Source: an uncultured Brevundimonas sp. | Lineage (GTDB): Bacteria; Pseudomonadota; Alphaproteobacteria; Caulobacterales; Caulobacteraceae | DNA length: 64,000 bases | Direction of reading: 5' to 3' | Assembly (NCBI RefSeq): GCF_963975535.1 | Contig: NZ_CAXBHE010000005.1 | Location: 25,172 to 89,171 of the forward strand | The notes under the pieces: model-generated | The model's input: the letters and a program-made list of their open reading frames with translations, nothing else | Told to the model about the DNA's origin: nothing | Database searches by the model: none | Shown here: in pieces, positions 13,580-17,746 of the stretch | How positions within the stretch are numbered: the stretch's first letter is position 1 | Layout: every line of letters starts with the position of its first letter | Position numbers and translations under genes: made by a program

Positions 13580-14380
13580 TCAGCGGCCGGGATCGGGAAT
13601 GCAGAGGGTCTCGCCGCACGCCTTGCAGTGGACGGCGTCGGGATCGTGGCGCTGCAGGCCGCAGGTCGGGCAGGGATAGACGACCTTGTGCGGCATCAGC
13701 AGGGTCTGCCCCAGGCGCACGAACAGGGTCACCCCGACCAGCATGATCACGATCGACACCAGCCGCCCCCAGTTGCCCGGCAGCAGAATGTCGCCATAGC
13801 CGGTCGTGGTCAGGCTGGTGACGGTGAAATACAGGGCGTCGATATAGCCGGTGATGCCTTCATAGCGGCCCATGAAGCTGGTGTAGACGAAGCCGGTGGC
13901 CACGAAGACGAAGGTCACCAGGGCCACGATCGCCTTGGTCGTGTCCTCGACCCGGGTCTGGTCATAGCGCCGGCCGATCGTGCGCCAGAAGAATTCCGAA
14001 TTGATCAGGGTCCACAGCCGCAGCACCCGCAGGAAGCCGAGATTGAACAGCCAGGCCGGGAACAGCAGCGTCGCCAGGATGAACAGATCGACCCAGACGA
14101 TCGGCTTCTTCAGCCAGGCCCTTACGTCGGAAAAGGCCCAGGCCCGCGCCGCAAGGTCGAGCGCCAGCAGGAAGGCGATCACATAGTCGATGACATAGAA
14201 GACCCAGGCCTCGCTCCGCAGCAGCGGGGCCGCCACGAAGAAGCCGACAATCAGCAGGTCAATGACCAGCACCGCCAGCCGGAACCGGACCGCGGTCTCG
14301 GATGAGCCGTGATACAGGGCCCGGACCCGCGCGCGCAGACGCAGGCCTTCGGGTTTTTCGACATCGTCAGCGCGGCTCAT
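13580..14380 (-). CDS. potassium channel family protein with C-terminal zinc ribbon
   Basis: Selectivity filter TTTGYGD, S4-like LRVLRLW, C-terminal CPTC...HCKAC; start at MSRADD (14380), not at the long ORF start. Confidence 0.9.
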   Translation of the reverse strand: MSRADDVEKPEGLRLRARVRALYHGSSETAVRFRLAVLVIDLLIVGFFVAAPLLRSEAWVFYVIDYVIAFLLALDLAARAWAFSDVRAWLKKPIVWVDLFILATLLFPAWLFNLGFLRVLRLWTLINSEFFWRTIGRRYDQTRVEDTTKAIVALVTFVFVATGFVYTSFMGRYEGITGYIDALYFTVTSLTTTGYGDILLPGNWGRLVSIVIMLVGVTLFVRLGQTLLMPHKVVYPCPTCGLQRHDPDAVHCKACGETLCIPDPGR

Positions 14381-14462: not shown

Positions 14463-15383
14463 ATGCAACGCCCCTTCGTCAAGATGAACGGCGCCGGCAA
14501 TGACTTCGTCATCGTCAATGCGCTCGAAACCCCCTTCGCCCCGACGGGGACACAGGTGCGCGCCATCGCCGACCGCGACACCGGCCCGGGCTGCGACCAG
14601 CTGATCGCCATCGAGCCGTCCGACCGCGCCGACGCCTTCATGCGGGTGTGGAACGCCGACGGCGGCGCGGTCGAGACCTGCGGCAATGCCCTGCGCTGCG
14701 TCGGCTGGCTGCTGATGCAGTCGACCGGCAAGGACCAGGTCACCCTCGACACCCTCGGCGGCCCGACCACGGCCTGGCGCGTTCCGGGCCGCGTCGGATC
14801 GGGACCCGACGGGCGGCGCGAAGCGTCAGATCCGCCCGACCCGATCGGGGGGTCGACGAGCGCGGCCCGGATTAAGGTCGACATGGGCGCGCCGCGGCTG
14901 GACTGGACCGAGATCCCGCTGGAGGAGGCGATGGACACCACGGGCATCGAGCTGCAGGTCGGGCCGATCGACGCCCCGCTGCTGCACACGCCCGGAGCCG
15001 TCTCGATGGGCAATCCCCATGTGGTCTTCTTCACCGACCGGCAGGACGACGCCTTCGTCACCGGCTCCGGCTCGCTGATCGAGCACCACCCGCTGTTTCC
15101 CGAGGGGGTCAATGTCGGCTTCGCCCACGTCCTGGCCCCGGACCGCATCCGCCTGCGGGTGTGGGAGCGCGGGGCCGGCCTGACCCGCGCCTGCGGCACC
15201 GGGGCCTGCGCCGCCCTGGTCGCGGCCAGCCGCCGGGGTCTGACCGGCCGCTCGGCCACGGTCGAGGTCGACGGCGGCACCCTGACGATCGCCTGGGACG
15301 AGGCCACCGGCCACGTCTTCATGACCGGCCCGGTCGAGATCGAACGCACCGGCATCCTGACCCTCAAACCTGACCCCGGGTAA
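14463..15383 (+). CDS. dapF: diaminopimelate epimerase carrying an in-frame insertion of about 25 aa
   Basis: KMNGAGNDF, ETCGNALRC and RACGTGAC catalytic Cys motifs, SMGNPHVV, VWERGAG. Confidence 0.95.
   Translation: MQRPFVKMNGAGNDFVIVNALETPFAPTGTQVRAIADRDTGPGCDQLIAIEPSDRADAFMRVWNADGGAVETCGNALRCVGWLLMQSTGKDQVTLDTLGGPTTAWRVPGRVGSGPDGRREASDPPDPIGGSTSAARIKVDMGAPRLDWTEIPLEEAMDTTGIELQVGPIDAPLLHTPGAVSMGNPHVVFFTDRQDDAFVTGSGSLIEHHPLFPEGVNVGFAHVLAPDRIRLRVWERGAGLTRACGTGACAALVAASRRGLTGRSATVEVDGGTLTIAWDEATGHVFMTGPVEIERTGILTLKPDPG
14783..14871. repeat. nested palindromic element inside dapF
   Basis: 11-bp perfect terminal inverted repeat TCCGGGCCGCG/CGCGGCCCGGA, inner pairs GATCGGG/CCCGATC and GGGCGG/CCGCCC, apical CGC-GAA-GCG hairpin. 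Confidence 0.8.

Positions 15384-15466: not shown

Positions 15467-17746
<2,280 letters not shown>

What the first reader, a model, noticed from the sequence alone, without database searches (positions are those of the whole stretch)
14783..14871. Palindromic DNA element inserted in frame into the essential enzyme DapF
Seen: the DT.GG...VDMG segment is 47 residues here (PGRVGSGPDGRREASDPPDPIGGSTSAAR inside it), against about 22 in DapF sequences as I recall them. The extra codons coincide with a nested palindrome: an 11-bp perfect TIR, two inner stems and an apical GCGAAGC hairpin. Both catalytic Cys motifs are intact. Known: Rickettsia palindromic elements (RPE) insert in frame into protein loops. 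Inference: an RPE-like selfish element donating peptide sequence, which I do not recall being described in Caulobacteraceae.
Basis: partly seen in the sequence, partly recalled or inferred. Interest (0 to 1): 0.7.

Follow-up and report, generated by a model that had tools for sequence, protein, structure and literature searches.

The report
REP hairpin repeat translated inside DapF
A short hairpin-forming DNA repeat that normally sits between genes in Brevundimonas is lodged in frame in the essential cell-wall enzyme gene dapF and is read as a floppy surface loop; this kind of insertion is already known, and this is a new, unusually variable example of it.

Summary
DapF (window 14463-15383) has 48 residues between its DT and VDMG anchors, against 23 in empty-site relatives. 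The extra codons form a nested palindrome.

The palindrome alone is not beyond chance. What decides the case is family membership. The insert derives from a 42-45 bp REP-type hairpin repeat:
- Its arms are GGCCGCGTCGGGTCG and GACCGCGGCC(CA). The inner stem varies and is kept paired by compensatory changes.
- This genome holds about 12 other copies, mostly between genes. One of them lies in frame inside a GTA terminase gene.
- A public-genome scan returned more than 117 stretches, almost all from Brevundimonas.

The window's copy is an expanded variant: 24 extra bases, then 12 more, each adding pairing.

Across the genus the dapF site is empty, or holds one to three tandem copies or expanded copies. 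All are in frame. The filled state is scattered on the dapF tree (7 changes for 8 filled taxa). Filled and empty alleles occur in backgrounds about 98-99% identical, with divergence concentrated around the indel. I read this as a few insertions spread by recombination.

AlphaFold places the insert as a low-confidence coil at a beta-hairpin turn.

Intragenic REPs and Rickettsia RPEs are already described, so this is a new member of a known kind.

The parts
14463..15383 (+). dapF (diaminopimelate epimerase) CDS, 306 aa, the only copy in the genome
   Evidence: Pfam PF01678. PDB DapF chains match residues 1-104 and 137-300 as two stretches and skip the insert. The model has the DapF fold, TM 0.75-0.82. 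One match in G000.
14783..14871 (+).
14787..14804 (+). REP left arm GGCCGCGTCGGATCGGGA. One mismatch (A at 14798) to the family consensus GGCCGCGTCGGGTCGGGA. Read as G109-R-V-G-S-G114.
14805..14828 (+). First interior expansion, 24 nt CCCGACGGGCGGCGCGAAGCGTCA (peptide PDGRREAS). Absent from canonical 45-bp copies; shared with the '44-residue loop' dapF alleles of close relatives. Contains GACCCGACG (reverse complement of the left arm's CGTCGGGTC) and GCGCGAAGCG (a motif that precedes extragenic copies).
14829..14833 (+). GATCC, the 5' half of the canonical inner stem (GATCC-CGAA-GGGTC)
14834..14849 (+). Second interior expansion: 16 nt GCCCGACCCGATCGGG replace the canonical CGAA loop (net +12 nt). 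Pairs with 14797-14803 and 14810-14816. Seen only here and in a 99%-identical relative (P0002).
14850..14867 (+). REP right arm GGGTCGACGAGCGCGGCC. One mismatch (G at 14860) to the consensus GGGTCGACGACCGCGGCC. Read as G130-S-T-S-A-A135.
14679..14681 (+). Codon of catalytic Cys73 (ETCGNALRC)
   Evidence: Invariant in A1.
15192..15194 (+). Codon of catalytic Cys244 (ACGTGAC)
   Evidence: Invariant in A1.

Best explanation
The extra 25 codons of DapF are a translated, secondarily expanded copy of a Brevundimonas-specific REP-type palindromic repeat.

**The repeat.** It has conserved arms GGCCGCGTCGGGTCG and GACCGCGGCC, usually followed by CA and an A-rich tail. Its inner hairpin is variable and kept paired by compensatory changes. 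It is normally found between genes.

**Shown:**
- The repeat sits in the codons of a beta-hairpin turn of the N-terminal domain.
- It is read in frame as a Gly/Ser/Pro/Thr-rich loop modelled at low confidence.
- The site is highly polymorphic in the genus: empty, one, two or three tandem units, or expanded interiors.
- Amino-acid variation inside the insert follows base-pairing of the DNA/RNA hairpin, not protein constraints.

**Inferred:**
- The repeat entered dapF a small number of times, at a GGCC-containing site that resembles the repeat's own ends.
- Filled and empty alleles were then passed between Brevundimonas lineages by homologous recombination.
- Units were amplified or shrunk in place.
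- In the window's lineage the interior grew in two steps (+24 nt, +12 nt), each adding sequence complementary to what was already there. This is what hairpin-templated strand switching during replication would produce.
- The insert is most likely a tolerated passenger, and the only visible selection is for an open reading frame.
For: **Family membership**
- The core of relatives' dapF inserts is near-identical to extragenic copies in this genome. L034's 50 nt match C5:209969-210018 at 100%.
- About 12 further copies lie in G000. Most are at gene ends or between genes; one lies in frame in a terminase gene.
Almost all are Brevundimonas or Caulobacteraceae.

**Hairpin maintained**
- 97% of cells are paired. 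21 double-sided changes are seen, against 8.2 in shuffles (0 of 500 shuffles reach it).
- Inside DapF the residue pairs are D..S 36, G..P 16, G..S 2 and D..P 0. These match A:T, G:C and G:T pairs, with no A:C mismatch.

**Empty sites**
- 28 of 37 genus genomes gave two tblastn matches that skip the insert (8 carry an insert, and G004/L038 has a 4-residue longer loop). Every outgroup match also skips it or is correspondingly shorter.

**In frame**
- Every variant found is open, with loops of 36 to 74 residues.

**Scatter on the tree**
- 7 state changes for 8 filled taxa on the dapF tree, against a shuffled mean of 7.1.

**Recombination**
- L180 (two units) versus L181 (empty): 35 mismatches in 2990 nt, 20 of them within about 30 nt of the indel.
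- L182 versus L183: about 32 of 44 mismatches lie in a tract of roughly 330 nt around the indel.
- The dapF-specific left flank TGGCGCGTYCCS is found next to no extragenic copy.

**Clean filled/empty pair**
- L178 versus L179: a 48-nt insertion after GACGGCC.

**Structure**
- Strands 102-107 and 134-142 flank a coil with pLDDT below 50 at residues 113-131.
- Solved DapF structures lack the segment.
Against: - No copy of the 89-bp form exists elsewhere in the genome. The window's element is linked to the family only through its arms and through intermediate alleles in relatives.
- The insertion mechanism is unknown. I looked for no transposase (genome search closed), and a target duplication cannot be told apart from the repeat's own GGCC ends.
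- Translation of the insert is inferred from frame conservation, not from protein or RNA data (look-up of sequencing runs closed).
- The protein set contains many near-identical metagenome sequences, so its counts are not independent events.
- The C-terminal domain of the model is of modest confidence.
Confidence: 0.85

Rival explanations
1. The dapF hairpin-turn codons are a true landing pad. The repeat has inserted there independently many times, once per junction class or more. In this view the scatter on the tree reflects repeated site-specific transposition or template switching, not recombination.
For: - Junctions differ between lineages. Examples are AADG|PGRV..AAN|IK, AGD|PGRV..QQKF|V, RAASSL|PGRV..AAQ|HQVT and WRV|PGRV..AA|RIK.
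- Some inserts carry the repeat's own CCA head and A-rich tail and others do not.
- The native sites (GCGCCGGGCCGGCG, GACCACCGCGTC, GACGGCCGG) resemble the repeat's ends.
- The terminase site is also filled in two species, in two different frames.
Against: - The commonest junction class (W-R-V-P-G-R-V..) recurs unchanged in distant dapF backgrounds, together with a flank that no extragenic copy has.
- Filled/empty pairs show diverged tracts around the indel, as expected of imported DNA.
- The family has only about a dozen copies per genome, which is few for so many hits on one site.
Confidence: 0.3
2. The insert is kept because it does something. It could act as a protein loop (for example a partner-binding or dimer-modulating surface), or as an RNA hairpin inside the dapF message that tunes stability, termination or translation.
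For: - It persists in many lineages.
- Base-pairing is kept inside dapF copies.
- REPs elsewhere act on mRNA stability and termination (background in PMC3733652).
- E. coli DapF has a known protein partner, RppH (PDB 6d13 title).
Against: - The insert is present or absent between alleles about 98-99% identical outside the loop.
- Copy number varies from 0 to 3.
- The arms are decaying in some copies, for example L182.
- The peptide has low complexity and is modelled as low-confidence coil.
- The D/S and G/P pairing could simply be inherited from two extragenic subtypes.
Confidence: 0.12
3. One ancient insertion occurred in the ancestor of the genus, followed by many independent precise deletions.
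For: - Palindromes are deletion-prone.
- The repeat's GGCC(G) ends could act as direct repeats for slippage.
Against: - Empty alleles carry clade-typical native turns (AGDHR, AADGR) like the outgroups, not scars.
- The insert DNA is near-identical to extragenic copies, while the surrounding dapF differs by 15-30%.
- Seven or more losses would be needed on a 30-taxon tree.
Confidence: 0.07
4. Ordinary loop expansion by local duplication or slippage, unrelated to any repeat family, with a palindrome that arose by chance.
For: Taken alone, the 11-nt inverted repeat and the fold energy are within what chance gives.
Against: There are 45-50 nt identities to extragenic copies in the same and other genomes.
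Confidence: 0.01

Closest known systems
Intragenic REPs, especially CGTC-tagged REPs of alphaproteobacteria (Di Nocera, De Gregorio, Rocco 2013, BMC Genomics 14:522, PMC3733652)
   Same: - A short G+C-rich stem-loop repeat that is mostly extragenic and lies near gene ends and inside operons.
- A CGTC motif near the 5' end and a CCA-like tail.
- Singles, dimers and arrays occur.
- Some copies lie wholly inside genes for known proteins and add roughly 15-80 residues.
- The paper also reports REPs at about the same site of recB in two Xanthomonas species.
   Different: - Here an extra 7-bp outer clamp (GGCCGCG/CGCGGCC) encloses the CGTC, and the stem is 7+3 bp with bulges rather than 8-9 bp.
- I could not see that paper's Figure 2, so I cannot assign the repeat to CGTC-1 to CGTC-4.
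- Brevundimonas and dapF are not mentioned there.
- Not reported there: presence/absence in near-identical backgrounds, 1-3 tandem units, and stepwise interior growth at one site.
Rickettsia palindromic elements (RPE; Ogata et al. 2000, as summarised in PMC10969869 and PMC3184786)
   Same: A palindromic repeat inserted in frame into genes for known metabolic and housekeeping proteins and translated, at positions compatible with the fold.
   Different: - RPEs are about 100-150 bp, belong to Rickettsia and encode conserved peptides.
- This family is 42-45 bp, G+C-rich and Brevundimonas-specific, and only 2 of about 13 copies in this genome are in genes.
- No sequence relationship was tested or is expected.
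REPIN/RAYT systems (GTAG-tagged REPs mobilised by IS200/IS605-like tyrosine transposases)
   Same: Conserved arms around a variable centre fold into one long hairpin, and copies form clusters.
   Different: There is no GTAG tag at either end. I did not look for an associated RAYT. CGTC-type REPs are reported to lack a dedicated transposase.
Betaproteobacterial repeat element (BRE) of Bordetella (Hot et al. 2011, cited in PMC3184786)
   Same: A small repeat found internally in about nine protein genes.
   Different: A different clade and sequence family. I did not compare the sequences.

Membership tests
REP (repetitive extragenic palindrome), broad sense | Short (about 20-45 bp) imperfect palindrome able to form a stem-loop | tested here: met
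   Canonical units are 42 bp (type A) and 45 bp (type B). 17 pairs are counted, with 97% of cells paired.
REP (repetitive extragenic palindrome), broad sense | Many dispersed copies, predominantly extragenic | tested here: met
   About 12 copies besides dapF in G000. Most are at gene ends or between genes, and one is in frame in a terminase gene. More than 117 stretches in public Brevundimonas genomes, of which only the dapF and terminase cases lie inside long open frames. Copies lie between pseudopilin genes in L114 and L137.
REP (repetitive extragenic palindrome), broad sense | Stem maintained by compensatory substitutions among copies | tested here: met
   Pair 22-36 occurs as CG, GC and AU. 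Pair 24-34 occurs as AU and GC. No shuffle of 500 reaches the observed covariation score.
CGTC-tagged REP superfamily (Di Nocera et al. 2013) | Unpaired CGTC (or TGTC/CCTC) tetranucleotide at one end | tested here: inconclusive
   CGTC is present (GGCCG-CGTC-GGGTCG), and its TC plus the following GG are unpaired in the counted structure. However, it is enclosed by an outer 7-bp clamp rather than being terminal.
CGTC-tagged REP superfamily (Di Nocera et al. 2013) | Stem of 8-9 bp beginning with complementary A/T residues; loop of 4-5 nt | tested here: inconclusive
   In type A the inner stem is 7 bp and starts with an A:T pair. It is extended by GTC/GAC across a bulged G, with a loop of 3 to 5 nt. 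Type B differs. That paper's consensus figure was not available.
CGTC-tagged REP superfamily (Di Nocera et al. 2013) | Short unpaired tail, mostly CCA | tested here: met
   Most copies end ..GCGGCC-CA, followed by an A-rich tail.
CGTC-tagged REP superfamily (Di Nocera et al. 2013) | No flanking dedicated transposase gene | not tested
   The genome search closed. No transposase was seen in the few loci I read.
Rickettsia palindromic elements (RPE) | Membership in RPE-1 to RPE-10 sequence families of Rickettsia, about 100-150 bp | tested here: not met
   The unit here is 42-45 bp (89 bp in the window) and the host genus is Brevundimonas. Sizes are as given in PMC3184786 and PMC10969869. The sequences were not compared.
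Rickettsia palindromic elements (RPE) | In-frame insertion into genes for known proteins, at fold-compatible sites | tested here: met
   dapF and the GTA terminase. The dapF insert is a low-confidence coil at a hairpin turn.
MITE | Terminal inverted repeats plus target-site duplication | tested here: inconclusive
   Inverted ends are present. In the clean pair L178/L179, GGCC flanks both sides, but GGCC is also the end of the repeat itself.
MITE | Derivation from an IS with matching ends | not tested
   I made no search for a parent IS.
REPIN/RAYT | GTAG tag at the REP end | tested here: not met
   There is no GTAG in the consensus of either type.
REPIN/RAYT | Associated RAYT gene flanked by the REPs | not tested
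   The tool for whole-genome family searches closed.
DapF, diaminopimelate epimerase (PF01678) | Two DAP_epimerase domains with the catalytic Cys pair | tested here: met
   Pfam E 5e-53 with two stretches. C73 and C244 are invariant. PDB DapF hits. DapF fold.

The most novel reading that the evidence does not exclude
The dapF turn, and a site in the GTA terminase, may be preferred landing pads of a REP family that has no known transposase and is still mobile. In this reading the repeat recognises or anneals to GGCC-containing sequence that mimics its own ends. The natural filled/empty pairs at about 98-99% background identity, the 1-3 unit arrays and the stepwise, self-complementary interior growth would then be a living record of how CGTC-type REPs insert, multiply and grow. 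That mechanism is currently unknown.
Probability: 0.2. Interest if true: 0.6.

Novelty: new member of a known kind. Interest (0 to 1): 0.4.

Why it matters
REPs are usually treated as extragenic, and how the CGTC type moves is unknown. This locus offers several things:
- An essential, single-copy enzyme that tolerates 13 to 51 extra residues at one hairpin turn.
- A natural series of empty, single, tandem and expanded alleles, some in nearly identical backgrounds.
- A clear case in which the protein sequence (D..S versus G..P) is dictated by nucleic-acid base-pairing.

It is useful for annotating Brevundimonas genomes, since odd loops in DapF, the GTA terminase and reportedly ThiC are repeat-derived. 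It is also a permissive insertion site in DapF and a test bed for REP mobility. It does not change the general picture, because intragenic REPs and RPEs are already described.

Tried and rejected
- **blastn of the 89 bp against the own genome** found only the query itself and short fragments. Taken alone this would have suggested an orphan. The family appeared only when I used the shorter core from relatives' dapF genes as the query.
- **A fuzzy-regex genome scan** timed out. I replaced it with blastn-short, nhmmer and a Hamming scan.
- **Rfam** gave no meaningful match across dapF.
- **A search for an extragenic donor** carrying the dapF-specific left flank TGGCGCGTYCCS found none.
I used the 37 genus genomes and 120 database proteins instead.
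- **RNA or DNA read evidence** for transcription through the insert could not be obtained (look-up of sequencing runs closed).
- **Literature searches** for Brevundimonas REPs or a dapF insertion found nothing specific.
- **Considered and rejected:** assembly artefact (the insert is present in many independent assemblies); chance palindrome in a slippage-expanded loop; intein or intron (too small, no such motifs, always in frame).
- **Not attempted:** a search for RAYT or IS200-like genes, orientation relative to replication, and distances from the insert to the active site or dimer interface.

Full report
**1. The observation**

- dapF is window 14463-15383 on the + strand and encodes 306 aa. 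It matches Pfam DAP_epimerase and solved DapF structures.
- It is the only dapF in the 3.1-Mb genome.
- Between the (I/L)DT and VDMG anchors the window has 48 residues. Most same-genus relatives have 23, and 41 of the 120 best database homologues also have 23.
- PDB DapF chains align to residues 1-104 and 137-300 as two separate stretches.
- Both catalytic cysteines (C73, C244) are intact and invariant among 62 relatives.
- Taken alone the palindrome is not beyond chance. The DNA fold z-score is -1.8. The window holds six 11-nt perfect inverted repeats within 100 nt, where a first-order random model gives 4.2.

**2. What it is**

The 89-bp piece has no second copy in the genome. However, the same dapF position in seven other species representatives of the genus carries a shorter insert. 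Its DNA core is almost invariant: GGCCGCGTCGGGTCGGGAG(A/G)TCCCG(A/C)AGGG(T/C)CGACGACCGCGGCCC.

- Using that core as the query, the window's own genome yields further copies. Two of them are 100% identical over 49-50 nt to the dapF insert of another species.
- A terminus-based scan finds about 12 copies besides dapF. They fall into two types:
  - Type A, 42 bp, with inner stem A-N-A-R-GGC / GCC-Y-T-N-T.
  - Type B, 45 bp, with inner GGAGGTCCCGAAGGGCCGAC.
- Both types share the arms GGCCGCGTCGGGTCG and GACCGCGGCC. They are usually preceded by CGCCA and followed by CA plus an A-rich tail.
- Most copies lie just after a gene or between genes. Three form a tandem array at C11:55402-55556.
Nearly all are Brevundimonas or unclassified Caulobacteraceae MAGs, with a few hits in Actinomycetota and one gammaproteobacterium that look like chance matches (one checked, in Streptomyces, lies in coding sequence). 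This also names the genus.
- In two of those loci the repeat sits between pseudopilin genes of a type II secretion operon.
- On 30 distinct type-A copies, 97% of cells pair. Two stem positions switch between CG, GC and AU or between AU and GC. No shuffle of 500 reaches the observed covariation.
- Rfam has nothing here.
- This is therefore a REP-type repeat family.

**3. The window's copy is a grown-up version**

- Its arms differ from consensus at one base each (14798 and 14860).
- Between them, the canonical 20 nt are replaced by 45 nt.
- Close relatives (82-90% identical DapF) carry an intermediate with a 44-residue loop, VPGRVGSG-PDGRREAS-DPEGSTTAARIK. This is the canonical unit plus 24 nt, corresponding to 14805-14828 in the window.
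- The window and a 99%-identical relative (P0002) additionally replace the CGAA loop by 16 nt (14834-14849).
- Each addition is complementary to sequence already present (stems I8 and I9).
- The additions reuse repeat-derived motifs. GACCCGACG is the reverse complement of the left arm's CGTCGGGTC. GCGCGAAGCG precedes extragenic copies.
- I infer hairpin-templated strand switching. This is inference only.

**4. Behaviour of the dapF site across the genus**

- Among 37 species representatives, 8 carry an insert, and one more (G004/L038) has a loop 4 residues longer that I did not examine for repeat sequence. Every outgroup match skips the insert or is correspondingly shorter.
- Among 120 database proteins the loop lengths are 23, 36, 38, 39, 41-44, 46, 48, 54, 65, 71 and 74. 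These correspond to no unit, one, two or three tandem units, or expanded units. All are in frame.
- B. diminuta SCAU 5 has two units plus a fragment.
- On a codon ML tree of dapF with the loop masked, filled genes are scattered and each has empty sisters, for example L035|L042 at 100 and L034|L040+L044 at 99.
- Fitch parsimony needs 7 changes for 8 filled taxa. Shuffled labels give a mean of 7.1.
- Filled and empty alleles exist at 96-99% identity outside the loop.
- At the DNA level:
  - L180 (two units) and L181 (empty) differ at 35 of 2990 aligned positions. Twenty of those lie within about 30 nt of the indel.
  - L182 and L183 concentrate about 32 of their 44 differences in roughly 330 nt around it.
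- The commonest junction (W-R-V-P-G-R-V.., DNA TGGCGCGTYCCS-GGCCGCG) recurs in distant backgrounds and is found beside no extragenic copy.
- This pattern is what imported recombination tracts look like.
- Several other junction classes exist (AADG|PGRV..AAN|IK; AGD|PGRV..QQKF|V; RAASSL|PGRV..AAQ|HQVT). Some include the repeat's CCA head and A-rich tail. So there was probably more than one insertion.
- L178/L179 is a clean 48-nt insertion after GACGGCC. The GGCC on both sides could be a target duplication or simply the repeat's own end.
- The native sites resemble the repeat's termini. I note this as a possible reason for the site preference, without a statistical test.

**5. Constraint is on the nucleic acid, not the peptide**

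- Within the encoded unit ..GSG-x-P-x-G-y-T.., x/y is D/S 36 times, G/P 16 times, G/S twice and D/P never.
- These correspond to the stem pairs A:T, G:C and G:T, and to the unpaired A:C that never appears.
- Both stem versions also exist outside genes. The pattern may therefore be inherited rather than selected inside dapF, and the counts include many near-identical sequences.
- Some dapF copies show decaying arms (L182).

**6. Structure**

- An AlphaFold2 model from 62 aligned relatives gives mean pLDDT 74 and pTM 0.78, with the N-terminal domain at about 90.
- It places beta-strands at 102-107 and 134-142. Residues 108-133 between them are coil, with pLDDT below 50 at 113-131.
- The model matches DapF crystal structures at TM 0.75-0.82.
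- The insert therefore lengthens a hairpin turn.
- I did not measure its distance to the active site or the dimer interface.

**7. Mechanism**

- The most likely account is a tolerated passenger.
- A REP-type repeat entered a permissive turn. The only visible selection is for an open frame.
- Recombination spreads both the filled and the empty states.
- Units expand and contract in place.
- The rivals are repeated site-specific insertion, an adaptive protein or RNA role, and an ancient gain with many precise losses. I weigh them in the rivals section.
- Translation is inferred from frame conservation. I could not check RNA reads.

**8. Comparison with what is known**

- Di Nocera et al. 2013 (PMC3733652) describe GTAG- and CGTC-tagged REPs. 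The CGTC type predominates in alphaproteobacteria (C. crescentus is listed among CGTC-positive species), ends in a CCA-like tail and lacks a dedicated transposase.
- The same paper catalogues REPs wholly inside genes for known proteins. These include singles, dimers and clusters encoding up to 82 residues, and REPs at about the same recB site in two Xanthomonas species.
- dapF, terminase and Brevundimonas do not appear there.
- Rickettsia RPEs are the classic in-frame case.
- The present family has a CGTC motif and a CCA tail. It also has an extra outer clamp and a bulged stem. I could not see that paper's consensus figure, so I leave assignment to CGTC-1 to CGTC-4 open.
- It is not an RPE, and it lacks the GTAG tag of RAYT-mobilised REPs.
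- My searches found no description of this family or of a dapF case.
- Earlier notes of this scan report a different palindromic repeat in frame in thiC of another Brevundimonas, and CGTC-type REPs in hisS elsewhere. These are leads that agree with the picture, not evidence.

**9. Verdict**

- This is a new member of a known kind.
- It is of moderate interest because the site is so variable and offers natural material for working out how such repeats insert and grow.

Noticed in passing
Own genome G000, contig C5:208474-209898 (+), outside the window (locus L004:1059-2483): A GTA-type terminase large subunit carries the same REP family in reverse orientation, in frame (C5:208902-208946, peptide ..LRLG-VPHSCGAAVVGPSGPPDPTRPGASRGSHSPRLM-LTSTPKP..). 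The Pfam Terminase_6N match stops at residue 137, just before the insert. The same site is filled in a different reading frame in another Brevundimonas MAG (L172).
   Followed up: partly
Own genome G000, C5:209230-209367, outside the window: A second in-frame insert of about 40 residues in the same terminase (WVPACAGMSG...SPMQ) is absent from L172. It is built from two other short palindromic repeats, each with at least 6-9 partial copies elsewhere in the genome. So several REP-like families in this genome contribute coding sequence.
   Followed up: partly
Own genome G000, for example C2:224840-224900, C9:74060-74117, C1:387395-387480: Many extragenic copies are preceded by a second conserved palindromic module (..CGCGACGCGGTCGCTCACTGCTTGAGCG..GCGCGCAGCGCCA). 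These look like composite, BIME-like clusters of two repeat types.
   Followed up: no
L114:6200-7400 and L137:340-1570 (Brevundimonas MAG and B. denitrificans): Copies of the repeat occupy successive intergenic gaps between pseudopilin genes (GFTL(I/V)E(L/M)(L/M)V N-termini) of a type II secretion operon. This placement is typical of REPs that act on polycistronic mRNA.
   Followed up: no
window 14621-14673: A second 11-nt perfect inverted repeat lies inside dapF, upstream of the insert. Given six such repeats in the window against 4.2 expected, it is probably chance.
   Followed up: no
window 13580-14380 (-) and 15467-17746 (+): dapF is flanked by an ion-channel gene (Ion_trans_2) on the opposite strand and by a 759-aa malic enzyme with a PTA_PTB domain. 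This neighbourhood is conserved in all Brevundimonas loci I fetched.
   Followed up: no
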